Position numbers and translations under genes: made by a program. A model generated the notes under the pieces. It was not told the DNA's origin. It was given only the letters and a program-made list of their open reading frames with translations, and ran no database searches. A DNA stretch of 64,000 nt, from assembly GCA_964575845.1 (NCBI GenBank), contig CAZNSX010000006.1, positions 5,378 through 69,377 on the forward strand, in the 5' to 3' direction. This DNA comes from an uncultured bacterium. GTDB taxonomy: Bacteria > UBA8248 > CAZNSX01. Below are positions 21,215-41,265 of this stretch, piece after piece. Numbering within the stretch: position 1 is the stretch's first letter; the number at the start of each line of letters is the position of its first letter.

Positions 21215-23467
21215 ATGGCAAGGGAGGTAAAGGTCGGGCTCTGCCGGGGCTGCGGGGGGCACGACCAGTGCCACTACAAGGCCGAGGTGGAGGACGGGAG
21301 GCTCATCCGGACCATGAATTTTCCCGAGTCTCCTTTCTCACCCTATTTCACGGCGGAGGGCTGCCCAAAGAACCGGGCCTGGGTCGAGCTCTCAGAGCAT
21401 CCGGGAAGGTTAGATTACCCCCTCAAGAGGGCCGGGGCCAGGGGCGAGAACAAGTGGGAGAGGGTCGGCTGGGACCAGGCACTCGATGAGATCGCAACCA
21501 AACTGGACCAGATCCGCAAAGAGAGCGGACCGGAGTACGTGGGGGCCATCATCGGCTTCTGGAACGAAGAGTGGGACATCGGCCGCTTCTTCAACGCCTT
21601 CGGCTCCGGCAACGTCGAGAACATAAACGCGCGGGTGTGCAGCGGGCAGGAAGCCTTCATGAACCTCGTGATGTTCGGCGGCATAACCCACTATGGCCCC
21701 CCCACGCCCGCGTGCAAGCTCACGGTCTGCTGGTCTGGGAGCCACCACATCACCGGGGGTCTCAAGTGGAAGGCCATGATGAGGGTCCCCAAGCTCATCG
21801 TCGTGGACCCCATAGCCACCTATGAGGCCAAGAGAGCGGATGTCTTCTGCCAGCTAAGGCCCGGCACCGACACCGCCCTCGCCCTCGGCTGGCTCAACGT
21901 CATAATCAACGAGAACCTCTACGACAGGGAGTTCGTGGAGGAGTGGGTCCTGGGTTTTGAGGACCTCAAGGGGCGCGTCCGGGAGTTTCCGCCAGAGAGG
22001 GTCGAGGAGATCACCTGGGTCCCACGGCAGACCATCGTCGATGCCGCTACCCTCTACGCCACAACCAAGCCCGCCAACATCCAGTGGGGGACTGCGTGCG
22101 CCCAGTTGGGGAGGAACGCGGCTGAGAGCGAGCGAGCGCGAAACTGTCTCAGGGCCGTCACGGGGAACGTGGATAAGGACGGAGGGAACCATTTCATAAG
22201 GGCGCATCCAAAGCTCTACTCCTTCAAGAAATTGCTGGCTGATGAGCTCCTCCCCCAATCCCAGGTGGAAAAGATAATCGGAGCCGAGAACGCCCCCGTG
22301 ATGTCGTGGCGCGGGTTCGAGCTCCTGCCCGACAAGGAGAGCCTGAGGGCTTTTGCCCTCAGGGGGCCTAACTTTCCATCCTTGCTGCAAGCCTTCCTTA
22401 CGGGCAAGCCTTACCGTCCGAGGGCTCTCTTTGTGGCCTGCTGTAATCCCGTCGTCACCATGTCTCAGACGGACAAGGTTTACAGAGTTCTGAAGGAGAA
22501 GGTAGAGCTCCTGGTGAGCCTGGAGCTTTTCCACACACCAACCTCCGTGCTCTGCGATTACGTTCTTCCCGTCACCTCATGGCTCGAGCGGCCGACGGTG
22601 AACTTCCTGGAGCGGGCCAATTGCATCATGGCGGGCGAGCGCATCCTGCCCAAGAGCATCCCCGGGAAGTACGACCGCCGGGACGACTACGACGTCTGGC
22701 GCGAGCTGGGCCTGCGCCTGGGGCAGAAGGACCTCTGGCCCTGGGAGACCCTGGACGAGGTTATGGACATGCGCGTCAAGGAGCTGGGGATGCCCTTCCA
22801 GAAGTTCGCCAGGAAGAAATCCTGGGACATCGATCCCCTGGAGTTCGAGACCTACAAGAAGGTTGGGTTCAAGACGCCCTCGGGGAAGATTGAGCTCACC
22901 TCCACGATCTTCGAGAAATGTGGTCTCGACCCCGTGGTCCACTACGAGGAGCCATCTGAGAGCCCGGTCTCGACGCCGGAGCTTTCGAAGCAATACCCTT
23001 ACATTCTTATGAATCCACACAAGCCCAAGATGTTTCTACACTCCTCCTTTCGAGGGCTCAAGTCCTTGCGTCGCAAGCACAACGAGCCCTTCGTTCGCAT
23101 TCACCCTGATACCGCCCTCAAGCACGGAATCTCAGAGGGGGACATGGTGTGGATAGAGACCCCGCGCGGCAGGATACAGCAGAAGGCCGTCCTCACGCCC
23201 GACATCCTGCCCCAGTGCATCGCGCCTGACCCGAACTGGTGGTTCCCGGAAAAGGAGGCAAAAGAGCCGAGCCTCTTCGGAGCCTTCGAGAAGAGCTTCA
23301 ACTTTCTCACCTCAGATTCCATCGAGCATGCGGGCGAGAGCTGCGGGAACTGGTACCTGGGGGGAATGCTCTGCAAGGTCTACAGGGTCAAAGACGGGGA
23401 GGAGATAATAACCCCGACATACGAGGTTCCGAATTACGATCCCATGTCGAAGACGCCGAAAACCTGA
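21215..23467 (+). CDS. Molybdopterin oxidoreductase, acetylene hydratase-like (paralog 2)
   Basis: CRGCGGHDQC...CPK; visibly closest to paralog 1 (shared WDIGRF, HYGP, ESCGNWYLG). Confidence 0.9.
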   Translation: MAREVKVGLCRGCGGHDQCHYKAEVEDGRLIRTMNFPESPFSPYFTAEGCPKNRAWVELSEHPGRLDYPLKRAGARGENKWERVGWDQALDEIATKLDQIRKESGPEYVGAIIGFWNEEWDIGRFFNAFGSGNVENINARVCSGQEAFMNLVMFGGITHYGPPTPACKLTVCWSGSHHITGGLKWKAMMRVPKLIVVDPIATYEAKRADVFCQLRPGTDTALALGWLNVIINENLYDREFVEEWVLGFEDLKGRVREFPPERVEEITWVPRQTIVDAATLYATTKPANIQWGTACAQLGRNAAESERARNCLRAVTGNVDKDGGNHFIRAHPKLYSFKKLLADELLPQSQVEKIIGAENAPVMSWRGFELLPDKESLRAFALRGPNFPSLLQAFLTGKPYRPRALFVACCNPVVTMSQTDKVYRVLKEKVELLVSLELFHTPTSVLCDYVLPVTSWLERPTVNFLERANCIMAGERILPKSIPGKYDRRDDYDVWRELGLRLGQKDLWPWETLDEVMDMRVKELGMPFQKFARKKSWDIDPLEFETYKKVGFKTPSGKIELTSTIFEKCGLDPVVHYEEPSESPVSTPELSKQYPYILMNPHKPKMFLHSSFRGLKSLRRKHNEPFVRIHPDTALKHGISEGDMVWIETPRGRIQQKAVLTPDILPQCIAPDPNWWFPEKEAKEPSLFGAFEKSFNFLTSDSIEHAGESCGNWYLGGMLCKVYRVKDGEEIITPTYEVPNYDPMSKTPKT

Positions 23468-23717: not shown

Positions 23718-25865
23718 ATGGAAAGAAAAATCATACCGACGAGCTGTTACATAGGATTTCTAGCCTGCGGGGCACTTGCGCATGTAGAGGATGGGAAGCT
23801 CATAAAGGTCACTGGAAACCCTGAGCACCCGTGGAGCGCTATCTGCCCGAAATGTTCTGAGTCCGTCCAGGCGCTCTACAACCCCAACCGGCCTATCCAC
23901 CCTATGAAGCGGACGGGCGATAGAGGGGAAGGAAAATGGGAGCGCATAACATGGGAAGAGGCGCTTGAGACCGTGGCCGACCGCTTCGCGGAGGTCATCG
24001 ATAAGCACGGGCCGGAATCCATCCTCGCCATGGACGGCTCGCCGGGTCGAACTCATGCCCTTTCCATAGCTCTTTTCATGCGGTCTATCGGAAGCCCAAA
24101 TGTAGCGAGCGATTGCGACCTATGCGAGGGAGGCAGCTGGGTCGGCAATATGGTGACAATCGGGGAGTATATCACCGACATACGCTCAGCCCCCGATATT
24201 GAGAACACAAAGTGTTTGATGCTTGCGGCCGTGAATCCGGCGGTATCCGCCCATCCGAAATGGGTGATCCAATGGAGAAAGGCCCGCGCCAACGGCGCAA
24301 AGCTAATTGTTCTGGACCCGAGGCGCACCGAATCTGCCGAGCAAGCCGACCTGTGGCTTCAGGTGAGGCCCGGCACCGACACCGCCCTCGGCCTTGCTAT
24401 GCTTCACACGATCATAAATGAGGGCCTCTATGACAAGGACTTTATAGATAAATGGACCGTGGGTTTCGACAGACTCAAAGACCACGTCCAGCAATATCCT
24501 CCGGAGAAGATGCAGGAAACTACTTGGGTTCCCGCGGACAAGATCAGAGAAGCCGCCAGGATGTTCGCTACCACTAAGCCCGCCGGCATCCATTACGGGG
24601 TTGGGCTTGAGCAATGTATCAATGCCCTGCAGAATGGGCGCGTGTTCTCGATTCTCATAGCGATAACGGGTAACATCGATGTCCGAGGCGGGAACCTCTT
24701 CAAGAAGTCTTACCCAGGCTACAAGGGCGCGTTCTATTTCTGGGCGGACAAGGAGTGGAGGCTCCCCCCGGAGGTCGAAGCCAAACGCCTGGGGGCCAGA
24801 AACTTCCCGCTGTGGTCAGGCCCTGATTCCTACCTCGCCCTCTGTCACACCGCTTCGGCAATCCAAGCTATGCTTTATGGTGACCCCTATCCCGTAAAGG
24901 CCGCATACATCGGCGGGAACAACGTCGTGCTTACTTATCCGAACTCGCCCAGGGTCTGGGATGCCTTGAAGAAATTGGATTTCCTGGTTGTCTCGGAGCC
25001 CTACGACATGACGCCCACGGCAGAGCTGGCCGACATTCTGCTGCCCAAATGCCAGTGGCTTGAGAATAAGGACATCGATTACTACTATGGCGCTAATGTA
25101 TTGCTCATCAGGCAGCCTGTGGTGCAGCCCCGCGGGGAGGCGAGGGAAGAGCTGGAGATCATGATCGAGCTTCGCAAAAAGATGGAGAAGCGGGGGATGG
25201 TGAAGAGAAGCTATCTCCCGTGGAACAGCGTGGATGAATTCGTCCAGTCTCGCCTCAAGGATACGGGAGTGAGCTGGGAGGAATTGAGCGAGAAAGGCTT
25301 TATCATCAACCCCAAACCCATCAAATATAAGGAGTATGAAGAGCGCGGCTTCGCTACCCCTTCGGGCAAGGTGGAGCTATATTCCAGTATATTAGAAAGG
25401 CATAACTATCCACCTCTTCCCATATTTGTTGAACCTTCCGAGGGCTATATCACGACTCCGGAGTTGGCTAAAAAGTATCCCTTAATGCTTCTGACGGGCA
25501 TAAGGGACTATAACTATTGGCAATCTCGCTTCAGGGATATCCCAAGGCTTCGTCAGAAGTCGCCCGAGCCCTGGGCCGAGATTCACCACGAAGTGGCGCT
25601 GGCGAGGGGGATCGAAGAGGGCGATAGGATTTGGGTTGAAACTACCAGCGCGAGAAGGATAGAGCTAGTTGCGAGAGTGACCGACCGGGTCCACCCAAAG
25701 ACCGTGATAACGTCGTTTGGCTGGTATTTTCCGGAAAAACCAGGCCCTGAACACGGATGCTTCGAATCTAACTCAAATGTACTTGTGACCGATGATCCCC
25801 CTTGGGACCCTGGTACAGGGGTGCCCTTCACGAGGGGATTGCTCTGCGAGATAGGAAAAGCCTAG
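23718..25865 (+). CDS. Molybdopterin oxidoreductase, acetylene hydratase-like (paralog 3)
   Basis: CYIGFLAC...CPKC, ITWEEAL, RPGTD, GNIDVRGG, TPSGKVELYS; RBS ggagg. Confidence 0.9.
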   Translation: MERKIIPTSCYIGFLACGALAHVEDGKLIKVTGNPEHPWSAICPKCSESVQALYNPNRPIHPMKRTGDRGEGKWERITWEEALETVADRFAEVIDKHGPESILAMDGSPGRTHALSIALFMRSIGSPNVASDCDLCEGGSWVGNMVTIGEYITDIRSAPDIENTKCLMLAAVNPAVSAHPKWVIQWRKARANGAKLIVLDPRRTESAEQADLWLQVRPGTDTALGLAMLHTIINEGLYDKDFIDKWTVGFDRLKDHVQQYPPEKMQETTWVPADKIREAARMFATTKPAGIHYGVGLEQCINALQNGRVFSILIAITGNIDVRGGNLFKKSYPGYKGAFYFWADKEWRLPPEVEAKRLGARNFPLWSGPDSYLALCHTASAIQAMLYGDPYPVKAAYIGGNNVVLTYPNSPRVWDALKKLDFLVVSEPYDMTPTAELADILLPKCQWLENKDIDYYYGANVLLIRQPVVQPRGEAREELEIMIELRKKMEKRGMVKRSYLPWNSVDEFVQSRLKDTGVSWEELSEKGFIINPKPIKYKEYEERGFATPSGKVELYSSILERHNYPPLPIFVEPSEGYITTPELAKKYPLMLLTGIRDYNYWQSRFRDIPRLRQKSPEPWAEIHHEVALARGIEEGDRIWVETTSARRIELVARVTDRVHPKTVITSFGWYFPEKPGPEHGCFESNSNVLVTDDPPWDPGTGVPFTRGLLCEIGKA

Positions 25866-25922: not shown

Positions 25923-27107
25923 ATGTCATTGCGAGGAGTGGACTCTGTGCCGGGAAGGGACCTGATACCCAAGGAGGAGTTTGAGGAAAGAAGGCGTAAG
26001 TGTGCTGAGGCGGCCGGTGAGAGGGGTTTGGATGCAATGCTCGTTTGGTCCAGGGGAAATCGTACCACCGACAGGTGCGCCAACGTTCTCTATCTGGCCA
26101 ATCACTATGCTCAGCTTGTTTATTTCCCCGATCATCCACCTTACTGGATGGCGCTCGGCCATTGTGCAGTGGTGCTCCCCCGCCAAAATGAAGAGTCTGT
26201 CTTGATATCGGACCTTGACTATCGGAACGAATTGGCCGCCATTGATGATTTTCGTGCAAATACCGATGTTATCGGCGAGGTGGTCGAGGTCATTCAAGAA
26301 AAAAAGCTTGGAGGTGGAAGGATCGGCATAGCCGGCACCGATGAATTATCTATGAAGCATTATGCGGTTCTGAGAGATAAGCTGCCCGATGCTGAATTTG
26401 TTCCCGCCGATGATATATTGAACGACCTCAAAAAGATAAAGAGCAAGAATGAGATAAGAGTGATCAGGCAGGCCTGCGATATTCTGAACCAGGCGAGCGA
26501 TATCGGTATGGATGCAATCCAGCCCGGCGTCAGGGAGGAGGAGATAGTAGCCCTCATTACAAGGGAATTCTTATTAAGAGGTGCCGATGCCTGGAGAGTG
26601 GGGCCGTGCTCATCCAGAGTGATAAGGAAAGGAGAGCTTTATCCACTGGCCATAGTCGGAAACTATAAATTCTACCATTTCGACATAGGACGCACTAAAG
26701 TGGTTGGGGCAGAACCAACCGAAGAGCAAGCAAGACTCTTAGAAGTGTGTACGGATTTCGTGCTCGATGTCACAAAGGAAATCAGGCCCGGCAAAACGGC
26801 GCAAGAGGTGGCAGAATTCGGGTTCAGATTCCTGGAGGAGAGGCTCAACATTAAACTGTCGGATATCAAGAAAGGCCTCTGGCGCAGGGGACCTTACACT
26901 ATCTATTGGACCGGCCTGGGGCACAGCCTGGGCCTCGATTGGGAGTCATGTGATCCCTTCATCTTCGACGGCGACAACACAAAGATAGAGCAGGATATGT
27001 TCTTGGCCATCGAAATGGTCCTGACCCAAGAAGGTGTGGGAACGGCTGAGGTCGAACACAACTTCTTGGTGACAGAGACTGGAACCGAGGTGCTCACAAA
27101 ACTCTAG
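25923..27107 (+). CDS. M24 family (creatinase/prolidase-like) hydrolase
   Basis: Creatinase_N-like N-terminus, KSKNEI, DIGRT, GHSLGL, AIE, EVEH; RBS aggagg. Confidence 0.85.
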   Translation: MSLRGVDSVPGRDLIPKEEFEERRRKCAEAAGERGLDAMLVWSRGNRTTDRCANVLYLANHYAQLVYFPDHPPYWMALGHCAVVLPRQNEESVLISDLDYRNELAAIDDFRANTDVIGEVVEVIQEKKLGGGRIGIAGTDELSMKHYAVLRDKLPDAEFVPADDILNDLKKIKSKNEIRVIRQACDILNQASDIGMDAIQPGVREEEIVALITREFLLRGADAWRVGPCSSRVIRKGELYPLAIVGNYKFYHFDIGRTKVVGAEPTEEQARLLEVCTDFVLDVTKEIRPGKTAQEVAEFGFRFLEERLNIKLSDIKKGLWRRGPYTIYWTGLGHSLGLDWESCDPFIFDGDNTKIEQDMFLAIEMVLTQEGVGTAEVEHNFLVTETGTEVLTKL

Positions 27108-27287
27108 CCGCCACCAGTCGAGGCACTCGCTGAAAGATTGATATCATGTGTGGGTAACTAGCAGAAGAAGGGGGAACATCTTTCGCTCTCTTGAAAGGGG
27201 GGACGTAAAGGGAGCAAGATCCTCATTCAGAATGTTCACCCCATCCCGATGGCCCCCGGATGGGGAAGAACTCATAACGGCAAATGA

Positions 27288-27316
27288 TTGACAAAGAAAG
27301 CGCCCCGATATAGGAT
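27288..27316 (+). promoter_or_regulatory. Putative sigma70 promoter of the cupin/AhpD operon
   Basis: TTGACA-N17-TAGGAT about 90 nt upstream of the first cupin. Confidence 0.55.
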
Positions 27317-27408
27317 TACCGCAATGCCCAAATCGCTGTATTTTCCCGGAATCCATTTCGAACAAATGAACATTCGCGTGAACCGGAAACCGATGAGGAG
27401 CTATCACC

Positions 27409-27756
27409 ATGGGTATCATCAACAATGATGAGATAGAAATCAAAGAGCTCTATCCGGGTGTTTATCAGAGACCGATCATATCGAGAGCGACCGGTTCTGC
27501 CGCCATCACCATGGGTGAAGTCGAGATAAAGCCCGGTTGCAAAATACCCCTGCACACCCACAAGGTTGAGGATGTGATCTTGCTCCGCGCGGGCAAAGGT
27601 GAAATCCAATTCGGGGATGAGACCCACTCGGTCGGAGAGAGTATGTCCATCCTGGTCCCTGCTGGATTGAAGCATGAAGTGCGCAATACGGGCGAGGCGC
27701 CCATGAAGATTATTTTCGGGTTCCCCGCCATAGAGGTGGAAAGACACGAACTCTGA
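27409..27756 (+). CDS. Cupin domain protein
   Basis: PLHTHKVED...PAGLKHEVRN metal-binding cupin motifs; RBS gaggag. Confidence 0.88.
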   Translation: MGIINNDEIEIKELYPGVYQRPIISRATGSAAITMGEVEIKPGCKIPLHTHKVEDVILLRAGKGEIQFGDETHSVGESMSILVPAGLKHEVRNTGEAPMKIIFGFPAIEVERHEL

Positions 27757-27830
27757 AACGCGGTCTTCTGCTGGCTTAAAGCTAACCGCAGATCATCAGT
27801 GAATATTCATTAATTCAGAGGAGGAAACCG

Positions 27831-28451
27831 ATGGGCGAGAAGACCAAGGAAGTCGCCTTAGAGAAGATTCGGCTCGTCAAGCCGGATGAGGCCACGGGCA
27901 GGGTCAAGGAGATCTATGATGAAATAGTCCGGACAGAGGGGAAGAAATGGCTCGTCCCCTTGTGGGGTTTCTTCGCCCACGTGCCTAAACTCCTGGAGCT
28001 CACTTGGGAGATGCTGAAGACGCTGGAGGTCGATGAGGGGCTGGTACCGCGAGAGCTCATGAGCAGTATCGCGATGGCATGTGCCGTCGATGCCAATTGC
28101 GAACGCTGCATAACTTACCACCAGACGACCCTGGTGGAGCGCATGGGGATTAGCGATGAAGAGGCGGAGAAGGTCCGGTTCTTCGAGGAATCGGACTTGC
28201 CGGAGGAGCGCAAGAAGGTCTTGAGGTTCTGCAAGAAGGTGGCCTTCGGCCAGCAAGTCAGTCCCGAGGAGTTCACGCAGATCAAGAAGCTCGGCTATAA
28301 CGATGCGCAGATCGTCGAGATGGTCACCTTAGCCCTCTTCGAGTCGGGCCTGGCCAGGCATGGGGCGGTCCTCGCCCAGTATGAGGACGGCATGGATTGG
28401 CCCAGCGAGTACACTCCCTCGCCTCACTACAAGGAGTACGTCGATTCTTGA
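27831..28451 (+). CDS. Carboxymuconolactone decarboxylase/AhpD-like protein (CxxC)
   Basis: NCERCITYH (CxxCxxxH); N-terminal EATGRVKEIYDEI; RBS gaggagg. Confidence 0.85.
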   Translation: MGEKTKEVALEKIRLVKPDEATGRVKEIYDEIVRTEGKKWLVPLWGFFAHVPKLLELTWEMLKTLEVDEGLVPRELMSSIAMACAVDANCERCITYHQTTLVERMGISDEEAEKVRFFEESDLPEERKKVLRFCKKVAFGQQVSPEEFTQIKKLGYNDAQIVEMVTLALFESGLARHGAVLAQYEDGMDWPSEYTPSPHYKEYVDS

Positions 28452-28476
28452 GTCTAATTCATGAGGGGAGCGCAAG

Positions 28477-28830
28477 ATGGTTGATAAGACCGTAGTGTCC
28501 GATGAGAACAGGATATCCTGGGAACAACACCCTGAGCTCAAGAGCATCCAGCGAAAGCCCCTCCTCACCAAGAGGGATCACGGAGCCGACCTCACGGTGG
28601 TCTTGGTCAAGGGGGCGAAGGGGATCACCGTTCCCGAGCATATTCACCAGGGATGCGATGACATCATCTACGTGATGGAGGGGAAATTCAAAATCTTCGT
28701 CGAGGGAACCGGCGAGATTCAGGCAAAGAAGGGGATGCTGATATGTGTCCCCAGGGATGCGAAACATCACATCTACGATGTTGAGGAAGATTACCAGGTC
28801 TTCGATGTCTTCGTTCCTGCAACCTTATAG
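28477..28830 (+). CDS. Cupin domain protein
   Basis: PEHIHQGCDDIIYVMEG...PRDAKH. Confidence 0.85.
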   Translation: MVDKTVVSDENRISWEQHPELKSIQRKPLLTKRDHGADLTVVLVKGAKGITVPEHIHQGCDDIIYVMEGKFKIFVEGTGEIQAKKGMLICVPRDAKHHIYDVEEDYQVFDVFVPATL

Positions 28831-28889
28831 GGAGCTGAATACGGTAGGCTCTATGATGCGGGCTTGACTTTTTAAGAAAGGGATAAAGG

Positions 28890-29489
28890 ATGGACATGGA
28901 GGAGTTGAGGCTCATAAAGCCCGAGGAGGCAACGGGGGAGGCAAAAAAGGTCTACGATGAGATCATCGAGACACAGGGGATGAAGTGGCTCGTCCCCCTC
29001 TGGGGATTTTTTGCCCACGTGCCCGAGCTCCTGCGCTTCCACTGGGAGCTTCTGAAGGTCCTGGAGATCGAGGAGGGGCATGTCCCCCGAGACATAATGA
29101 ACTCCATTTCGATGGTCTGCGCGGTGGCCGCCGATTGTGCCCGGTGCGTAAACTATCACCAGACCACTCTCGTCGAGAGGCTCGGGATAAGCCCGGAGAA
29201 GGCAGAGAAGCTCAGGAACTTCGAGGAGTCGGACATACCCGAGGAGGAGAAGATAATATATCGTTTTGCCAAGAAGGTGGCCTTCGGCGAGCAGCTGACC
29301 CCGGAGGAGTATATGGCGGTCAGGAAACTGGGTTACGGGGACGCCGCCATCGTGGAGATCGTCACCGTGGCCCTTTTTGAATCGGCCATGGCCAGGCATG
29401 GTGTGGTCCTCGCTCAGCACGAAGACTCCCTCGACTGGCCGGCCGAGTATACCCCATCTGAATTCTATAAAGCGCACGCAGATAAGTAG
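28890..29489 (+). CDS. CMD/AhpD-like protein (CxxC), close paralog of 27831-28451
   Basis: DCARCVNYH; shares KWLVPLWGFFAHVP, YHQTTLVER, ALFES, DWP with the first copy. Confidence 0.85.
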   Translation: MDMEELRLIKPEEATGEAKKVYDEIIETQGMKWLVPLWGFFAHVPELLRFHWELLKVLEIEEGHVPRDIMNSISMVCAVAADCARCVNYHQTTLVERLGISPEKAEKLRNFEESDIPEEEKIIYRFAKKVAFGEQLTPEEYMAVRKLGYGDAAIVEIVTVALFESAMARHGVVLAQHEDSLDWPAEYTPSEFYKAHADK

Positions 29490-29604
29490 GTCTCTTGCGC
29501 GAGCCCTTCGGCCCAAGGGGATAGGAGACCGAGAGCTCCTATCTAATAACCTTCGGCTCTGAGAGGGATTATTGGCAAAAACTCCAAATGGAGGGTACAA
29601 CACA

Positions 29605-30174
29605 ATGGCGAGAGTGAAATTGGTTGAACCGGAAGAGGCCGATCCTAAAGCGCGGGCTGTTTTCGAGGATATTGTTAAAACTCACACGCGGGGCAAGGTT
29701 AAGGGAAGGATCGGCAATCTCTACAAGGTCTACGCAAATGTTCCCGAACTCTTTGAAGTCGAGTGGTCCAGAATAAAAACCATGATGAAGGGTTTGGGGC
29801 TCCCCCCGAAATTGAAAGAGGCCATCTGTCTATCCGTTGCGGTTGTCAACATCTGCGACGTCTGAGTGCTCTACCACTCCAACGCCTTCCGTGCTGAAGG
29901 CGGCAGCGAGGAGGAGGTTCAGGCCATCATCGACCTGGATGAGGGCAAATTGAGCCAAAGGGACGCCAAAGTCTTCAAGCTCGTTCGAAAGGCGACCCGC
30001 AACCCTCATGAGGTCACCGATGAAGAGTGCGACGCCCTGAGGGCGAGCGGCTTCTCAGACGCCGAGATCGTCGAGATCGTCGCTGTGATGGCCCTGGCGA
30101 CGGGAGAGAATAAGTTCATGGACGCGCTGGATATCAAACCCGGCGCTTGGTACGCCAAGAAAACCGCTGGCTGA
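29605..30174 (+). CDS. CMD/AhpD-like selenoprotein (CxxU; UGA read-through at 29863-29865)
   Basis: Two abutting in-frame ORFs join as NICDV-TGA-VLYH, matching CxxCxxYH of the neighbours; joined product 189 aa; RBS ggaggg before ATG 29605. Confidence 0.85.
29866..29910 (+). promoter_or_regulatory. Putative bacterial SECIS element
   Basis: Hairpin CGCCTTC-cgtgct-GAAGGCG (29883-29902) begins 17 nt after the UGA. Confidence 0.55.
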
Positions 30175-30183
30175 AACTGTCAT

Positions 30184-30213
30184 AGGGGGGCCTCGGACGA
30201 GGGCCCCCTCCCT
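30184..30213. terminator. GC-rich hairpin between convergent operons (probable terminator)
   Basis: GGGGGCCTC-ggac-GAGGGCCCCC; no strong U-tract. Confidence 0.5.
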
Positions 30214-30291
30214 ATCCTTATGGCAGAGCGAGGGGGAGGGGAGGCGGCCATGAGGAACGTGGCCGCCTCCGAAATGCGCGGGTGCAAATCC

Positions 30292-30540
30292 TCAGGCCAA
30301 CGTCAGCGCGTGGGGAGCACAGTACTTGACGCAAAAAGGGGTTCCCTCATTACGGCAGAGGTCACACGAGGCGAGGAAGCGGTACTCGACCTCCCCGGTG
30401 GCATCATCTCTAAAAATTCTGATGCTGGATTTGGATGGGTCAAATACCTTAACGTGGTGGTATGAACAGGCTATCTCGCAACTCCTGCAGCCGTTGCAAA
30501 GGCTGAGTTCCATCTGTATCTGATAATCAGGTTTAGCCAC
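30292..30540 (-). CDS. Small 4Fe-4S protein (AOR-associated ferredoxin-like subunit)
   Basis: CNGCRSCEIAC and CDLC...CVKYC; GTG start at 30540 with gaggtgg RBS. Confidence 0.8.
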   Translation of the reverse strand: MAKPDYQIQMELSLCNGCRSCEIACSYHHVKVFDPSKSSIRIFRDDATGEVEYRFLASCDLCRNEGTPFCVKYCAPHALTLA

Positions 30541-30595
30541 CTTCCACCTCCCTCGGAATGAAGGACCCTTCGGGGCCCCTCTCGGGGTTTCCATT

Positions 30596-32527
30596 TCAGG
30601 CCAGCCTGCCGGCCGCCTGGAGCTTCTCCCTCACACGTGAGAGCCCCAGTTCCTCCAGAGTCTCAGCCTTCTGCCACCCCGTGGCCCTATCCCATCCTTG
30701 ATAGTCGTAGTATTCATCCAACATCTCATCCCACTTCGCCGCATCCAGCACAACACCCGCAAAGGGGCCGCTCTTGATGGGCTCTTTGTAGAACCGCTCC
30801 GAGAGATAGTCGTCCCTGCGGCCGAAGCCCGTGTGAAGGGTGTTGAAGGCCTTCTCGATGTTGTGAATCCGACGCCCGGCCCTCATGAGCTCCTCGCCGC
30901 TGAGCGGGACACCGGTTGCCTTGGAGAAAAGGGCCGCATATTCATCGGGTCCGAGCAGTCCCACGTTCTCCCAGTAGCTGGTGAAATAGCACACGCCAAG
31001 CGAGTCGACGGCGCATTTGTAAAACTCAAACCAGCCCGTCAGCTTGCCCTTACCCTCATATATCCTGAAATCGCCGGCCGTTGGCACGCCGAAGAGCTTC
31101 TCCCCGACCTCGGGTGATACTCGCTGGCCTTCCGTCGTGGTGGAGCCATTCAAGTGAGTCCCACCCCGGGTGCTGACCGCCACTCCCAGTCCCCAGGCCT
31201 TGAAGATTCGCATCCGGCTCTCGAGTGTTGGAAGGCCCTTCACCTGAGCGACATATTTCTCACTTCCCCGGCCGATGTAGCGGGAGGCGAGATGTGGGCC
31301 CTCCGCCAGGAGATCCCCAAAGCTCTCCCGCCGTGAGATCTTCTCAAGGAGCTTGATCACCGTAGCGCCATCCCCCCAGCGAAGGGACATTCCGTCGGCA
31401 TCTTCCTCGGTGATGAGCCCATCCTCATAGCACTGGAAGGCCCACCCGATGGAGGCCGCCGCCTGGTCAAGGTTCATGCCCATCTGGTTGCAAAAAGCGC
31501 TGGCCATGAGGACCACCTCGGGGTCGGTCACGCCCAGATTTGGCCCGAATAGGTTGACCGAGTTTGCCTCTAGGCCCTCCGCTTTGAGGCCCCCATACGG
31601 GCCCGATGGGATGGAATAGTAATGGCTGCAGTAGATGGGGCAGTTGAAACAGGCCATTCGCCTGACCTCGTATTTATCCCTGAAGACCGCCTCACTCAGC
31701 TTGAAGTTGACTTCCGGGTCCTGATATTCGTCCTGATAGTAACGGACCACAACGGGCTTGGTACCATCGGTTCCACCGACACCATATTGTCCCTGAGTAC
31801 CGCGGACCCTCAGCCCCTCTACGGATGGGTTGCTTTCGATTTTGGCCCAGGCCTGGTCCACGAGTTCCATGAAGCCCTGGGGGTCGGCCACGGCTATGGG
31901 CCGGGTTCCCCGGACGGCGAACGCCTTGAGGTTCTTCGACCCCATGACCGCCCCGCACCCGCCGTAGGCTGCCGCCCGGGCCCTATCCACAATGATGCAG
32001 GCGAATTTAACGAGGTTCTCGCCCGCAGGGCCGATGGCCGCCACTCGTACATCTCTATCTCCCAACTCTTCCTTGATGGCCGCATCGGTGTCCCAGATGG
32101 TCCTCCCCCATAAATGGCCAGCATCTCTTATCTCGGCCTTGCCATCCAGGATGGCGAGGTAGACGGGCCTTTCGGCTTTTCCTTCAACCACCACAAGGTC
32201 GAAGCCCGCGAACTTAAGCTCTGGCCCGAAGTGCCCGCCCGCGAACGACGTCGCCATCCCTCCGGTTTGAACGTTCTTGTTCCCGACGATGAAGCTCGTG
32301 GAGCAGGGGGCCATAGTCCCCGTCAGTGGGCCCGCAGCAATTATGAGTTTGTTTTCCGGGTCAAGCGGCTGGGTCTTGGCCTCGACCTCGTTTAAGAGAA
32401 TCGACTGGCAGATTCCCCTTCCACCGAGAAATTCAAGGTATGGCTCGGTGGATTCTGTCGAAATCTTCCCCGTGGAGAGGTTAACCCTCAAATATTTGCC
32501 CGCCCATCCAAAGATATTTTTGCTCAT
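30596..32527 (-). CDS. Aldehyde ferredoxin oxidoreductase (tungstopterin AOR/WOR family)
   Basis: GGRG, GPELKFAGFD, IGPAGEN, GAVMGSKNLKA, CFNCPIYC, TRGGTH, DSLGVC. Confidence 0.93.
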   Translation of the reverse strand: MSKNIFGWAGKYLRVNLSTGKISTESTEPYLEFLGGRGICQSILLNEVEAKTQPLDPENKLIIAAGPLTGTMAPCSTSFIVGNKNVQTGGMATSFAGGHFGPELKFAGFDLVVVEGKAERPVYLAILDGKAEIRDAGHLWGRTIWDTDAAIKEELGDRDVRVAAIGPAGENLVKFACIIVDRARAAAYGGCGAVMGSKNLKAFAVRGTRPIAVADPQGFMELVDQAWAKIESNPSVEGLRVRGTQGQYGVGGTDGTKPVVVRYYQDEYQDPEVNFKLSEAVFRDKYEVRRMACFNCPIYCSHYYSIPSGPYGGLKAEGLEANSVNLFGPNLGVTDPEVVLMASAFCNQMGMNLDQAAASIGWAFQCYEDGLITEEDADGMSLRWGDGATVIKLLEKISRRESFGDLLAEGPHLASRYIGRGSEKYVAQVKGLPTLESRMRIFKAWGLGVAVSTRGGTHLNGSTTTEGQRVSPEVGEKLFGVPTAGDFRIYEGKGKLTGWFEFYKCAVDSLGVCYFTSYWENVGLLGPDEYAALFSKATGVPLSGEELMRAGRRIHNIEKAFNTLHTGFGRRDDYLSERFYKEPIKSGPFAGVVLDAAKWDEMLDEYYDYQGWDRATGWQKAETLEELGLSRVREKLQAAGRLA

Positions 32528-39075: not shown

Positions 39076-41265
39076 CTACGCCTTGTAGACTCTAACCGGT
39101 ATTCTCCGCATCCGCGGGGTGCCTGCAACATGGTCGTACGGCGGGTCGGAGTCCGCCAGCACGTTGATGTTCTGCTCGAGGGCCTTCTCGTACCAATCCT
39201 CCTTTTCCGGGCACCACCAACAGACGATGGCCGACACGACCTCGGGATGGGTCTTATCCGTGACGTTTGCCTGCACCCTGATCCGACGCTTCTTAGGGTT
39301 CTCGACGTAGACCCAGTCCCCATCCTTGACCTTGCACTTCTTTGCAGCATCGGGGTGGATTTCCAAGGTGTTATTGGGAACCTTCCTCCGCGCCCATTTC
39401 AAGTTATGCCCCTGAGAGTGGTAGTAAATGTACTCACGGCGCCCCGTAAAAATTAAGGGGTATTCGTCGGCGAGTTCTGGGAACTCGAGCTCGCTCTCCC
39501 AGGGCTCTACGTAATAGGGGAGGGGATTGTAGTCGAACTTCTCGCACAGGCTTGAGTAAAGCTCGACCTTCCCGGAGGGGGTCTTGAACCCGTGCTCCTC
39601 ATATTCGCGGTACTTCCACGGGATCCTGATGATCCCTTTCCGACGGAGCTCTTCGAAGGTTATCCCCGTCTCCTTTAAGCGCCACTCGTTAAAATCGTGG
39701 ATGTCGTTCCATTTGGGGAAATTCTCGAGCTTCATCTTCTTAGCCAGTTCGATGATAAATTTTCTATCTTCCCAGGCCTCGCCGGGCGGGTCGATGAGGG
39801 GCTGCCGGATAATCATGATCCCGTGCTCGTGTTCGGCTCCCAGTTCTTCTTTCTCCGCCCATGTACAGGCGGGCAGGACGTAGTCGGCCAACTCGCCCGA
39901 AGGGGTCATGAAATGCTCCATCTGGACGTAGAGATCCAGGGTCTTGAGGGCATTTATCACCTCGTGGGTGTTGGGTGCCGTGACCACGGGATTGAGCCCA
40001 TGGAGGATGAGGGCCCGGAGCGGGTAGGGGTCATCATGGAGGAGCGCCTTATAGATGGAGACCATGTGGGCCTGGTGGACTGAGCCCGTGGGACCCGACC
40101 AGAGGGGGAAGCGCTTGGCTCCGATCTGCCTCTCTTCCACTTCCTGTGGGAGCATTTTCTCACCTTCAAAGGGTCTTTTCTTTGCGGTGGAATAGGCTCC
40201 CCAGCCCGTGAGGTCCGGCGCCCTGACGAGTCCTTTCAGGCGCTTCGGAAGAATGTTCCCCCCGGGCACATCCAGGTTGCCCGTTATGGCGATGAGGCAC
40301 GCGTAAGCCCGGCACGCACCGAAGGAGTTGGTCTGCTGGGTCAGACCGCAACGGTTGTAGATGGTGGAGGGCTTATGAGTGGCGTACAGGTGGGCAAATT
40401 GCCGGATCTTCTTGGCGGGGATCCAAGTGAGCTTTTCCGCCTTTTCGGGAGGATAGGCCTGCACGCACTCGCAGAGCTTGTCGAAACCTACGGTCCACTT
40501 CGAGACGAAATCCTTATCGTACAGCTCCTCATTGATGATCACGTTCAAGGCGGCGAGGGCCAGGGCGCCGTCGCCCCCGGGTCTGATCTGCAGCCAGAGA
40601 TGAGCCCGGCCCGCGGGCTTTGTCTTGCGCGGGTCGATCACCACCAGCTTGACGTCTTTATCTTCCTGCAGTCTCTTCGTCATTCCCACCCAATGCGGGT
40701 TAAAAGAAACGGAAACATCGGTCCCCCACATGACGATGGTCTTTGCGTGCGCGTAATCGCTCGCGTGGGCGAAGTGCGAGACGAATGCGCCGAAGGTCAC
40801 GTAATCCGAGGCGAACCCCGCTCCCTCGCAGGTATCAGTGGTGTTGTAGAGGTTTGGGCTTCCGAGAGCGCGAAGGAAAGGCGCGAGCATGGTGAATCTT
40901 CCGTAGGTGGGAGCGTGGGCGATGGCCAGAGGGCCGTACTTCTCCTTCACGGCGTTAAGCTTCTCAGCGATCTCATCCAGGGCCTGGTCCCAGGATATGC
41001 GCTCCCACCTCCCCTCTCCCCTCTCCCCGACTCGTTTCATCGGGTATTTCAGCCGGTCGGGATGGTGGGCGTATTCGGCGAAATTTCTCCCTTTCGGGCA
41101 GGTGGAGCCATGAGTCACAGGATTTTCCGGGTCTCCCGTGATTTTGACTATTTTCCCGTCCTGGACATGGCCGAGCACCCCGCACTGGATGTAACACGCG
41201 TGGCAGGCCGACCTTATGATCTTGACCGGACGTTTCTTCTTTCCAGTCTTTGTGGCAGTCGCCAT
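39076..41265 (-). CDS. Molybdopterin oxidoreductase, acetylene hydratase-like (paralog 4)
   Basis: CHACYIQC...CPKG, ISWDQALDEIA, DTCEG, GNLDVPGG, TPSGKVELYS; RBS gaggagg. Confidence 0.9.
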   Translation of the reverse strand: MATATKTGKKKRPVKIIRSACHACYIQCGVLGHVQDGKIVKITGDPENPVTHGSTCPKGRNFAEYAHHPDRLKYPMKRVGERGEGRWERISWDQALDEIAEKLNAVKEKYGPLAIAHAPTYGRFTMLAPFLRALGSPNLYNTTDTCEGAGFASDYVTFGAFVSHFAHASDYAHAKTIVMWGTDVSVSFNPHWVGMTKRLQEDKDVKLVVIDPRKTKPAGRAHLWLQIRPGGDGALALAALNVIINEELYDKDFVSKWTVGFDKLCECVQAYPPEKAEKLTWIPAKKIRQFAHLYATHKPSTIYNRCGLTQQTNSFGACRAYACLIAITGNLDVPGGNILPKRLKGLVRAPDLTGWGAYSTAKKRPFEGEKMLPQEVEERQIGAKRFPLWSGPTGSVHQAHMVSIYKALLHDDPYPLRALILHGLNPVVTAPNTHEVINALKTLDLYVQMEHFMTPSGELADYVLPACTWAEKEELGAEHEHGIMIIRQPLIDPPGEAWEDRKFIIELAKKMKLENFPKWNDIHDFNEWRLKETGITFEELRRKGIIRIPWKYREYEEHGFKTPSGKVELYSSLCEKFDYNPLPYYVEPWESELEFPELADEYPLIFTGRREYIYYHSQGHNLKWARRKVPNNTLEIHPDAAKKCKVKDGDWVYVENPKKRRIRVQANVTDKTHPEVVSAIVCWWCPEKEDWYEKALEQNINVLADSDPPYDHVAGTPRMRRIPVRVYKA

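What the first reader, a model, noticed from the sequence alone, without database searches (positions are those of the whole stretch)
29605..30174. Hidden CxxU selenoprotein: third AhpD-like gene reads through UGA
Seen: the ORF track splits this gene in two, but the halves abut in frame across one TGA (29863-29865), giving NICDV-[TGA]-VLYH. The two upstream paralogs have NCERCITYH and DCARCVNYH at this position, so the TGA occupies the second Cys of CxxC-xx-YH. A 7-bp hairpin starts 17 nt downstream, where a bacterial SECIS lies. Known: CxxU CMD/AhpD-like selenoproteins exist. Inference: a 189-aa Sec enzyme that standard annotation would call two fragments.
Basis: partly seen in the sequence, partly recalled or inferred. 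Interest (0 to 1): 0.8.

Follow-up and report, generated by a model that had tools for sequence, protein, structure and literature searches.

The report
Selenocysteine-containing AhpD-like redox protein gene
This is very probably one real 189-residue redox-protein gene whose in-frame TGA encodes selenocysteine in place of an active-site cysteine, an already documented kind of bacterial selenoprotein that gene callers split into two fragments.

Summary
Window 29605-30174 (+) is one reading frame interrupted only by TGA 29863-29865. That TGA sits at the second Cys of the AhpD motif C-x-x-C-x-x-x-H (here E72, C84, U87, H91).

Evidence that it is read as Sec:
- The genome has tRNA-Sec, selA, selB, two Sec-type selD copies and an fdhA-like gene with one in-frame TGA.
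- TGA is otherwise its commonest stop.
- 136 of 156 homologs have Cys at this column, and none has Trp.
- In 43 of 44 single-TGA homologs fetched from related genomes, the TGA falls on this exact column (CxxU).
- An ortholog about 88% identical is split at the same codon, and both halves are equally conserved.
- A contig from an independent study reproduces the TGA.
- A 7-bp hairpin (29883-29902) meets the published bacterial SECIS constraints. This is only moderate evidence, because 7.6% of ordinary Cys codons in this genome also pass.

The fold is AhpD-like (pLDDT 94, TM 0.85 to 6K40). CxxU AhpD-like selenoproteins have been in print since 2005, so this is a new member of a known kind.

One modest twist: it branches among Cys forms, next to two Cys paralogs in the same operon, apart from the sampled Sec clades. 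That suggests a separate Cys/Sec switch. Selenium insertion itself is untested.

The parts
29590..29595 (+). Shine-Dalgarno-like GGAGGG, 9 nt upstream of the ATG
   Evidence: Read directly. The start at ATG 29605 is supported by the ortholog's gene call (MARVKL...) and by distant homologs that start MARVKLI....
29605..30174 (+). Complete coding sequence of the AhpD-like selenoprotein (189 codons plus terminal TGA at 30172-30174)
   Evidence: Translation with TGA=U. Pfam CMD PF02627 at 51.2 bits. TIGR00778 AhpD core at 42.7 bits, above its 27.8 cut-off; TIGR01926 at 76.3 bits, below its 81.8 cut-off. AlphaFold model pLDDT 94.1, TM 0.85 to 6K40.
29818..29820 (+). Codon for Glu72, the position of the proton-relay Glu (Glu118 in M. 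tuberculosis AhpD), 12 residues before the first Cys
   Evidence: Sequence. The consensus of alignment A1 has E at this column. The relay residues are listed in PMC3141380, Background passage.
29854..29856 (+). Codon TGC for Cys84, the first Cys of the motif (inferred resolving Cys)
   Evidence: Sequence. C84 is nearly invariant (90% or more) in the 76-row alignment A1.
29863..29865 (+). In-frame TGA read as selenocysteine (U87)
   Evidence: The column is Cys in 136 of 156 homologs and TGA in 43 of 44 relatives' single-TGA loci. Reproduced in independent run X2, record 3. The ortholog is split at the same codon.
29875..29877 (+). Codon CAC for His91, the conserved His of C-x-x-C-x-x-x-H
   Evidence: Sequence. 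H91 is nearly invariant in A1.
29883..29902 (+). Candidate bacterial SECIS hairpin: 7-bp stem CGCCUUC/GAAGGCG with 6-nt loop CGUGCU (G at loop position 2, followed by U); loop starts 24 nt after the UGA
   Evidence: -9.9 kcal/mol. It meets all four constraints of the published model (PMC13188914, Fig. 2 legend). Background pass rate is 229 of 3000 Cys codons. A competing hairpin with loop AAGGCGG exists.
27831..28451 (+). Cys-form AhpD-like paralog 1 (206 aa, CERC-ITYH), preceded by a cupin gene at 27409-27756
   Evidence: (31% identity to the Sec gene).
28890..29489 (+). Cys-form AhpD-like paralog 2 (199 aa, CARC-VNYH), preceded by a cupin gene at 28477-28830
   Evidence: (31% identity).
30184..30270 (.). 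Two G+C-rich hairpins between the convergent Sec gene and the minus-strand Cys-rich ORF 30292-30594; likely transcript ends
   Evidence: Fold of 30172-30295: -63.5 kcal/mol, z -3.71, 0 of 200 shuffles as stable. No T-run terminator was called there by the consensus scan. The function is inferred.

Best explanation
Window 29605-30174 (+) is one functional gene for a 189-residue AhpD-like (CMD-family, 'peroxidase-related') thiol/selenol oxidoreductase. UGA 29863-29865 is decoded as selenocysteine. Inferred translation step: as the ribosome reaches the UGA, SelB with GTP and Sec-tRNA(Sec) is recruited by the hairpin at 29883-29902, and Sec is inserted instead of terminating. Inferred chemistry, by analogy with M. 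tuberculosis AhpD: Sec87 sits at the N-terminal cap of helix 85-97 in the position of the exposed, attacking Cys133. Its selenolate attacks an oxidised partner (a peroxiredoxin sulfenate or disulfide, or another electrophile). Cys84 resolves the mixed bond into an intramolecular Se-S bond. Glu72 and His91 act as the proton relay. The gene is the last of a cupin-AhpD-cupin-AhpD-AhpD(Sec) run, so it is probably a high-reactivity, selenium-dependent isoform working beside two Cys paralogs. Shown here: the frame, the homology, the Sec machinery, conservation of the TGA, the Cys/Sec column and the fold. Inferred: Sec insertion, the role of the hairpin, the substrate and the reductant.
For: Frame and motif. 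Family: PF02627 at 51.2 bits across the TGA; TIGR00778 over its cut-off. Solved relatives 6K40 and 2OYO align their second Cys with U87. Model pLDDT 94.1, pTM 0.89; TM 0.85 to 6K40 and 0.81-0.84 to 2PFX, 3C1L and 2OYO. Sec machinery in the same genome: tRNA-Sec at 76.6 bits (cut-off 47) with anticodon tca; selA at 561.6 bits and selB at 364.9 bits, adjacent on C10; two selD copies each with one TGA, at GAGU/AGGU; one fdhA-like gene with one TGA. TGA ends 1623 of 3236 long ORFs, so it is a normal stop in this genome. Column 87 is Cys in 136 of 156 homologs and Trp in 0. 43 of 44 single-TGA homolog loci from 42 related genomes have the TGA at this column, as CxxU. Ortholog pieces P0013 (86 aa, 9 differences) and P0011 (102 aa, 13 differences) end and begin at the same codon and are reported from the same contigs, so the part after the TGA is conserved about as well as the part before it. 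The downstream half has the codon-position GC pattern of this genome's genes: GC3 0.77 and GC2 0.39, against 0.62 and 0.77 one frame off. Independent run X2, record 3, covers 29687-29977 with 0 differences; run X1 at depth 21 shows no variant. The hairpin passes my strict coding of the published bSECIS model. So do 3 of 3 other selenoprotein genes of this genome, and the fdhA-like element is nearly the same in geometry (loop 23 nt after UGA, -9.7 kcal/mol). Only 229 of 3000 background Cys codons pass. Relatives' Sec forms carry stable small hairpins (mean -10.0 kcal/mol, n=43) and Cys forms do not (mean -3.3, n=27). The exposed role of the second Cys in M. tuberculosis AhpD comes from PMC6626918, Discussion passage.
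Against: There is no direct evidence of selenium insertion or of expression. The hairpin is not exceptional in its context. The 66-nt region has z -1.17 and the 63-nt region z -0.11. 36 of 300 mononucleotide shuffles reach the best small-hairpin energy. The MFE fold of the region prefers a competing hairpin whose loop AAGGCGG has no G in its first two positions. The z of -3.83 for the 20-nt hairpin alone comes from a stretch chosen because it folds. The loop CGUGCU differs from the GGUC-type loops of most relatives' AhpD-like SECIS elements. The stop codon in the ortholog was inferred from two abutting protein calls; its DNA was not seen, so TGA versus TAA/TAG and hairpin covariation are untested. 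TIGR01926 scores 76.3, under its 81.8 cut-off. The residue before Sec is Val, not the Tyr or His of the relay position. In B. thailandensis AhpD the first Cys mattered more than the second (PMC6626918 passage), so the nucleophile assignment is not universal. Kin are not independent, so the Sec-versus-Cys hairpin contrast overstates its support.
Confidence: 0.88

Rival explanations
1. Pseudogene: a TGC/TGT to TGA nonsense mutation at the active-site Cys truncated a redundant third paralog, and the downstream frame has not yet decayed.
For: A single base change turns a Cys codon into TGA. Two intact Cys paralogs lie just upstream, so the gene could be dispensable. The hairpin is not statistically exceptional in context.
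Against: An ortholog with 9 of 86 and 13 of 102 residue differences keeps both halves open, at the same lengths, split at the same codon. The differences are mostly conservative and equally dense on both sides. The downstream half keeps a coding GC3/GC2 pattern. The same column is TGA in 43 of 44 relatives' loci, and the genome decodes Sec.
Confidence: 0.06
2. Split gene: translation stops at TGA and restarts at the abutting GTG (29866), giving 86-aa and 102-aa polypeptides that assemble into an AhpD-like fold lacking the second redox residue.
For: GTG follows the TGA directly. Gene callers produce exactly these two products in two organisms.
Against: No Shine-Dalgarno-like sequence precedes the GTG. 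The break falls inside the first turn of helix 85-97, at the active site. No full-length homolog among the 156 is split there other than by a stop at the Cys column. It would remove the residue conserved as Cys in 136 of 156 homologs.
Confidence: 0.03
3. Sequencing or assembly error: the true codon is TGC or TGT.
For: None specific. The window comes from a metagenome-type assembly with 8.18% contamination.
Against: Run X1 at depth 21.1 shows no other letter. A contig from a different study (X2, record 3, 291 nt) matches with 0 differences across the TGA. A diverged ortholog is split at the same codon.
Confidence: 0.01
4. Alternative genetic code: TGA is a sense codon (Trp or Gly) throughout this organism.
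For: None.
Against: TGA terminates 1623 of 3236 stop-to-stop frames of 250 codons or more, including this gene's own end at 30172-30174. selA, selB and other long genes are open under table 11. No homolog has Trp at the column (0 of 156), and Gly occurs in only 6 of 156.
Confidence: 0.005

Closest known systems
AhpD-like selenoproteins with a CxxU motif (COG2128 / TIGR01926 'AhpD-like 1'; pfam02627 'AhpD-like 2' or CMD-like), from Zhang, Gladyshev and co-workers
   Same: Same domain family, same CxxU motif with Sec at the second Cys, Cys homologs far outnumbering Sec forms, and a bacterial SECIS just downstream. Sources seen: PMC2398784 Table 2 (299 and 70 sequences, both CxxU); PMC1088965 Fig. 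3 legend; PMC13188914 table rows for TIGR01926 and PF02627, both CxxU.
   Different: This gene is 25-35% identical to the 43 Sec forms sampled from related genomes and does not branch with them. It scores just below the TIGR01926 cut-off. Its motif is C-D-V-U rather than the usual C-x-Y-U, and its SECIS loop is CGUGCU rather than GGUC-type.
Mycobacterium tuberculosis AhpD (1KNC, 1GU9)
   Same: CxxC-xxx-H redox motif with a Glu/His proton relay. The second Cys (Cys133) is the exposed residue that bonds to AhpC (PMC3141380 and PMC6626918 passages). Here E72, C84, U87 and H91 occupy those positions.
   Different: The structural match is weak (TM 0.55-0.57, E about 0.1). In the M. tuberculosis protein the active site lies in the C-terminal helices. 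Val86 replaces the His132 relay residue. No AhpC partner or lipoamide system was examined here.
'Peroxidase-related' AhpD-core proteins with solved structures: 6K40 (D. radiodurans AhpD), 2OYO, 2PFX, 3C1L, 2PRR
   Same: Best sequence matches (E 1.4e-12 and 1.5e-12) and best structural matches (TM 0.81-0.85 over about 185 residues). Same length class and same C-x-x-C-x-x-x-H position.
   Different: All of these are Cys forms, at 19-24% identity in the structural alignment.
NCBIfam (seleno)protein models NF053654 (YciW-related) and NF041238 (AhpD-related CFYUT)
   Same: Related AhpD-type proteins that NCBI treats as possible selenoproteins; both give weak hits.
   Different: Scores are far below the cut-offs (44.3 against 310; 24.9 against 175). 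The gene is not a member, so these models would not rescue its annotation.

Membership tests
Bacterial selenoprotein gene (SelB/SECIS-dependent UGA recoding) | In-frame UGA with a coding frame continuing on both sides | tested here: met
   Domain matches span the TGA. Coding GC3 pattern continues downstream.
Bacterial selenoprotein gene (SelB/SECIS-dependent UGA recoding) | Genome encodes tRNA-Sec, SelA, SelB and SelD | tested here: met
   All are above the curated cut-offs.
Bacterial selenoprotein gene (SelB/SECIS-dependent UGA recoding) | UGA aligns with a conserved Cys in homologs (Sec/Cys pair) | tested here: met
   136 of 156 homologs have Cys and 0 have Trp. 43 of 44 relatives' single-TGA loci have TGA at this column.
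Bacterial selenoprotein gene (SelB/SECIS-dependent UGA recoding) | In-frame stop conserved in an ortholog, with conservation on both sides | tested here: met
   P0013 (86 aa, 9 differences) and P0011 (102 aa, 13 differences) abut at the same codon. The identity of the stop codon was not seen, because no DNA was available.
Bacterial selenoprotein gene (SelB/SECIS-dependent UGA recoding) | bSECIS: 3-9 nt apical loop, 4-16 bp stem, G in the first two loop positions, 16-37 nt from UGA to loop, energy of -7.5 kcal/mol or lower (PMC13188914, Fig. 2 legend) | tested here: met
   6-nt loop CGUGCU, 7 bp, 24 nt, -9.9 kcal/mol. The model is permissive: 229 of 3000 background Cys codons pass. A competing fold exists.
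Bacterial selenoprotein gene (SelB/SECIS-dependent UGA recoding) | Compensatory changes that keep the SECIS stem in orthologs | not testable with these tools
   No ortholog DNA was found. The only ortholog is known as protein alone.
Bacterial selenoprotein gene (SelB/SECIS-dependent UGA recoding) | Selenium actually incorporated at the UGA | not testable with these tools
   This needs 75Se labelling or mass spectrometry.
AhpD-like / carboxymuconolactone decarboxylase family (PF02627; TIGR00778 core domain) | Profile match above the curated cut-off | tested here: met
   PF02627 at 51.2 against 23. TIGR00778 at 42.7 against 27.8.
AhpD-like / carboxymuconolactone decarboxylase family (PF02627; TIGR00778 core domain) | All-helical AhpD fold | tested here: met
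   pLDDT 94.1. TM 0.85 to 6K40, and 39 PDB matches at E of 0.001 or lower.
AhpD-like / carboxymuconolactone decarboxylase family (PF02627; TIGR00778 core domain) | Redox motif Glu...Cys-x-x-Cys-x-x-x-His | tested here: met
   E72, C84, U87, H91. The middle relay residue (His132 or Tyr50) is Val86 here.
TIGR01926 'peroxidase-related enzyme' subfamily (the accession listed for the AhpD-like CxxU selenoprotein in PMC13188914) | Score at or above the curated cut-off of 81.8 bits | tested here: not met
   76.3 bits over residues 5-179, with C standing in for U. This is a near miss, so I call the gene AhpD-like and do not file it as a TIGR01926 member.
NF053654 YciW-related (seleno)protein / NF041238 AhpD-related (seleno)protein | Score at or above the curated cut-off (310 / 175 bits) | tested here: not met
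   44.3 and 24.9 bits.
Functional AhpD (reductant of AhpC) | Reduces an AhpC-type peroxiredoxin; reduced in turn by lipoamide or thioredoxin | not tested
   No partner search was made. The neighbours are cupins, an M24 hydrolase, molybdopterin oxidoreductases and an AOR, not ahpC.

The most novel reading that the evidence does not exclude
The Sec codon here marks a separate Cys/Sec switch inside a cupin-linked AhpD-like sub-branch that is otherwise all Cys in the sample. The result is one operon that carries two Cys isoforms and one Sec isoform of the same enzyme. That would be a natural side-by-side test of what Sec buys over Cys, and it comes with a SECIS (loop CGUGCU) unlike the GGUC-type elements of the other AhpD-like selenoproteins in related genomes. 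Support: on a 47-row tree a branch with 97/94 support puts the gene with 18 Cys rows and all 18 other Sec rows on the other side. Forcing it across costs 16.7 log-likelihood units, p-AU 0.0139, for a group I named after seeing the tree. Under the published rule in PMC1794560 (methods passage), this pattern counts as a Cys-to-Sec conversion. Caveats: library rows cannot be Sec forms because gene callers split them, the tree is unrooted, and the branch is long (0.94).
Probability: 0.45. Interest if true: 0.4.

Novelty: new member of a known kind. Interest (0 to 1): 0.3.

Why it matters
For annotation: the gene is held in public protein collections as two unrelated short proteins in two organisms. 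It also falls below the NCBIfam selenoprotein-aware models, so pipelines will keep missing it. This is a clean, well-supported correction. For biology: it adds a diverged member to a known selenoprotein family. It also offers a tidy Cys/Cys/Sec paralog trio in one operon for comparing selenol and thiol catalysis. It does not reveal a new mechanism or open a long-standing question.

Tried and rejected
1. Ortholog DNA. The search for related loci found no relative in genome contigs (123 pattern matches, 0 confirmed) or in metagenome contigs (247 matches, 0 confirmed). SECIS covariation and dN/dS therefore could not be done.
2. Near-length protein search. Only 8 hits, the best at 36% identity, so no close Cys ortholog exists there. 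The ortholog appeared only in the 'shorter' search.
3. Rfam scan of 27000-31000 at E up to 1: 0 matches.
4. Expression. No RNA holder is listed for this stretch.
5. Laid runs. X4 laid nothing. X3 covers only 30236-30398, not the gene. X2 records 2 and 4 do not cover the TGA.
6. Unconstrained hairpin search. It picked long, heterogeneous structures and was uninformative, so I replaced it with constrained searches.
7. My strict coding of the bSECIS model (contiguous stem only) passes only 21 of 43 relatives' Sec genes. Many of them have bulged stems or weaker hairpins, so the test is conservative. Its 7.6% background rate applies to this strict form only.
8. AU test on the 120-row tree. It did not finish in two 288-s runs. 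I replaced it with a 47-row subset of my own choosing.
9. FlpD/FrhD family search in this genome: no match.
10. One fold used wrong coordinates (29880-29899). It is void and was redone.
11. The search of earlier findings near this place: nothing to show.
12. Promoter/terminator consensus scan. It found nothing convincing in the 29490-29604 spacer, so whether the gene is co-transcribed with its paralogs is open.
13. Supplementary files of the papers were closed, so any published lists of AhpD-like selenoprotein sequences could not be checked against this gene.
Full report
**The observation**

The window has two abutting ORFs on the + strand, 29572..29865 and 29866..30174, separated only by TGA 29863-29865. 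Read with TGA=U from ATG 29605, they give a 189-residue protein...AICLSVAVVNICDV-U-VLYHSNAF.... A GGAGGG sits 9 nt upstream of the ATG. The ortholog and distant homologs start with the same MARVKL.

The two upstream paralogs read NCERCITYH and DCARCVNYH at the aligned place. Its stem starts 17 nt after the UGA and its loop 24 nt after. Every descriptive statement of the finding is correct.

**What the protein is**

- Pfam CMD (PF02627) matches residues 65-110, across the TGA, at 51.2 bits against a cut-off of 23.
- NCBIfam gives the AhpD core domain TIGR00778 at 42.7 bits (cut-off 27.8). The 'peroxidase-related enzyme' subfamily TIGR01926 aligns over residues 5-179 at 76.3 bits, just under its 81.8 cut-off.
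- The best solved relatives by sequence are 6K40 (D. radiodurans AhpD) and 2OYO. Both align the second Cys of C-x-x-C-x-x-x-H with U87.
- An AlphaFold model from a 76-row alignment has pLDDT 94.1 and pTM 0.89 and is all-helical. C84 and U87 sit at the N-terminal cap of helix 85-97.
- The model superposes on 6K40, 2PFX, 3C1L and 2OYO at TM 0.81-0.85.
- C84 and H91 are nearly invariant in that alignment, and the consensus has Glu at position 72. Those are the proton-relay positions listed for M. tuberculosis AhpD and PA0269 (PMC3141380, passages).
- The middle relay residue (His or Tyr) is Val86 here.

**Does this organism read UGA as Sec?**

The window's genome (4.04 Mb, 30 contigs, 99.5% complete, 8.18% contamination) has:
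- a tRNA-Sec at 76.6 bits against a 47-bit cut-off, which ARAGORN calls with anticodon tca;
- selA (561.6 bits) and selB (364.9 bits) side by side on contig 10;
- two selD genes above the cut-off, each with one in-frame TGA, at ...GAGU... and ...AGGU..., which I recall as the canonical SelD active-site position;
- one formate-dehydrogenase-like gene with a single in-frame TGA, in the context ...ARIUHSAT.... Taking that as the FdhA Sec site rests on my recall of the motif.

TGA ends 1623 of 3236 stop-to-stop frames of at least 250 codons, so TGA is an ordinary stop here and not a sense codon.

**The Cys/Sec column**

I aligned all 156 homologs returned by the two library searches. The window's own halves and the ortholog halves were left out.
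- The column aligned to U87 is Cys in 136.
- It is Ser or Gly in 6 each, other residues in 6 (one each of R, E, N, F, L, M), and a gap in 2.
- None has Trp.
- 108 have the full C-x-x-C-x-x-x-H.

In 61 genomes searched, counting this one, 52 have homologs. Very many of the matches carry exactly one TGA. I examined 44 such loci from 42 genomes: 4 delivered automatically and 40 that I picked from the listed rows, one per genome. The TGA falls on the column of U87, as C-x-x-U, in 43 of them. The exception, L086, has an intact CxxC and its TGA lies outside the alignment.

**Conservation and error checks**

The 'shorter' library search found only the window's own two pieces and a second pair from another assembly: P0013 (86 aa, 90% identical) and P0011 (102 aa, 86% identical). 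Both are reported from the same contigs.
- They end and begin at the same codon...NDCEV | VLYH....
- They differ from the window at 9 of 86 residues before the stop and 13 of 102 after it, mostly conservative changes.
- A dead downstream half would not stay open, keep its length and be as conserved as the upstream half.

The downstream half also keeps this genome's coding GC pattern: GC3 0.77 and GC2 0.39, which is reversed one frame off.

On the error question:
- Run X1, possibly the source sample, shows no variant at depth 21.
- A 291-nt contig from a different study (X2, record 3) covers 29687-29977 with 0 differences.

**The SECIS, told straight**

The published consensus (PMC13188914, Fig. 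2 legend) asks for four things: a 3-9 nt loop on a 4-16 bp stem, a G in the first two loop positions (usually followed by G or U), 16-37 nt from UGA to loop, and an energy of -7.5 kcal/mol or lower. The hairpin meets all four: 6 nt, 7 bp, C-G-U..., 24 nt, -9.9 kcal/mol.

How my strict coding of that model behaves on other sets:

| Set tested | Pass |
|---|---|
| This genome's other selenoprotein genes | 3 of 3 |
| Relatives' Sec genes | 21 of 43 |
| Background Cys codons in long ORFs | 229 of 3000 |
| Background Cys codons with a hairpin at least as stable as the window's | 96 of 3000 |
| TGA terminators of long ORFs | 86 of 1500 |

- The fdhA-like element is almost identical in geometry to the window's: loop 23 nt after UGA, -9.7 kcal/mol.
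- The low pass rate for relatives' Sec genes is because my version allows no bulges.
- So passing the test is worth roughly a ten-fold likelihood ratio, not proof.

Against the hairpin:
- The surrounding 63-66 nt are no more structured than shuffles (z -1.17; z -0.11).
- 36 of 300 shuffles reach the best small-hairpin energy.
- The MFE fold prefers an overlapping hairpin whose loop lacks the G.
- The loop differs from the GGUC-type loops that dominate the relatives' AhpD-like SECIS elements.

Across relatives, Sec forms have a stable small hairpin after the codon (mean -10.0 kcal/mol, n=43) and Cys forms do not (mean -3.3, n=27). The closest Cys control is the window's own paralog 1 at -11.2, whose loop starts only 15 nt after the codon and has no G in its first two positions. 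These rows are kin and not independent.

**Surroundings**

The gene closes a same-strand run: cupin (27409-27756), AhpD-like Cys (27831-28451), cupin (28477-28830), AhpD-like Cys (28890-29489), AhpD-like Sec.
- Upstream lie an M24/creatinase-type hydrolase, three molybdopterin oxidoreductases, a CCG-domain protein and a class-III aminotransferase.
- Downstream and convergent lie a Cys-rich ORF that gives only sub-cut-off matches to Fe-S electron-transfer protein models, a tungsten-type aldehyde:ferredoxin oxidoreductase, and a branched-chain amino-acid ABC transporter.
- These three AhpD-like genes are the only ones in this genome.
- In one of two relatives inspected, the Cys-form counterpart is again preceded by a cupin protein (L028, not L033). 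Neither has a third, Sec-type gene.
- No ahpC is adjacent, so the physiological partner is unknown.

**Mechanism**

Inferred: SelB with Sec-tRNA(Sec) is recruited by the hairpin and inserts Sec at U87.

In M. tuberculosis AhpD, the second Cys (Cys133) is the exposed residue that forms the cross-link with AhpC Cys61, while Cys130 is partly buried (PMC6626918, Discussion passage). By analogy, the Sec87 selenolate attacks the oxidised partner, Cys84 resolves, and E72 and H91 relay protons. The same passage notes that in B. thailandensis the first Cys mattered more, so the assignment is not universal.

**Place in the family**

On a careful 47-row tree (rows chosen by me from the 120), a branch with 97/94 support puts the window's gene with 18 rows that are all Cys forms. 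These are its two paralogs, 5 relatives' Cys genes and 11 library proteins. All 18 other Sec rows lie on the other side, and the Sec label needs at least 6 changes. Forcing the gene across costs 16.7 log-likelihood units, p-AU 0.0139, for a group named after the tree was seen.

This fits recurrent Cys-to-Sec conversion as described for thiol oxidoreductases. PMC1794560 Table 1 lists 2 such events for AhpD-like COG2128, and its methods passage gives the rule.

Caveats: library rows cannot be Sec forms, the tree is unrooted, and the branch is long.

**Comparison with what is known, and verdict**

CxxU AhpD-like selenoproteins are in print:
- PMC1088965 (Sargasso Sea, 2005; passages and legends);
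- PMC2398784 Table 2 (AhpD-like 1 with 299 sequences and AhpD-like 2 with 70, both CxxU);
- PMC13188914 table (TIGR01926, PF02627, NF041047 and NF041238, all CxxU).

The finding is therefore a correct call of a hidden selenoprotein gene. It is a new and rather diverged member of a known kind, with about 0.88 confidence that the UGA is decoded as Sec. Its interest is modest: an annotation fix, plus a neat Cys/Cys/Sec trio in one operon.

Noticed in passing
window 15535-17826 (+), 21215-23467 (+), 23718-25865 (+), 39076-41265 (-): Four molybdopterin-oxidoreductase genes lie in this one window. Genome-wide, the Fdh-alpha model gives 45 matches, none over its cut-off, which is an unusually large expansion of this enzyme class. 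Only one match (C2:259269-260030) carries an in-frame TGA.
   Followed up: partly
G000 contigs C8 (144345-145826; 173498-175075) and C11 (13848-15329; 43001-44578): Two pairs of molybdopterin-oxidoreductase matches have identical scores and the same roughly 29 kb spacing on two contigs. This is either a large duplicated region or redundant assembly, in keeping with the 8.18% contamination figure.
   Followed up: no
window 30172-30295: The spacer between the convergent Sec gene and the minus-strand Cys-rich ORF is very strongly structured: -63.5 kcal/mol, z -3.71, 0 of 200 shuffles as stable. It includes a perfect 13-bp G+C-rich stem. These are probably transcript ends, but they have no T-run.
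   Followed up: partly
window 29487-29606: The 115-nt spacer before the Sec gene contains a 9-bp hairpin (GGAUAGGAG...CUCCUAUC) inside a larger fold. It is not significant against shuffles (z -1.50, 12 of 200) and has no Rfam match. Whether it ends the upstream transcript or regulates the Sec gene is open.
   Followed up: partly
related genomes, e.g. G021 (17 matches), G019 (14), G043 (14), G010 (13): Related genomes carry many AhpD-like genes each, a large share with a single TGA at the CxxU column. This genome has only three and a single Sec form. The family is a major selenoprotein family in this order.
   Followed up: partly
G042:C33:6344-6862, G010:C34:5475-5996 (1 TAG each); G021:C125:65419-65937 (1 TAA); G048:C94:30727-31188 (2 TGA): A few AhpD-like matches in relatives carry an in-frame TAG or TAA, or two TGAs. 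They may be broken genes, alignment run-ons, or other recoding.
   Followed up: no
window 28119-28138 (paralog 1, just after its second Cys codon): Paralog 1 has a 7-bp hairpin (CCACCAG...CUGGUGG, -11.2 kcal/mol) starting 8 nt after its TGC codon. It fails the bSECIS spacing and loop-G rules. It is chance or a remnant; undecided.
   Followed up: no
model m7ec58946e1b7 against PDB 6OHJ and 6OHI: The fold also matches the thiol-dependent debrominase Bmp8 (TM 0.75-0.80). This is a reminder that CxxC proteins of this fold do chemistry other than peroxide reduction, which bears on the unknown substrate of this cupin-linked cluster.
   Followed up: no
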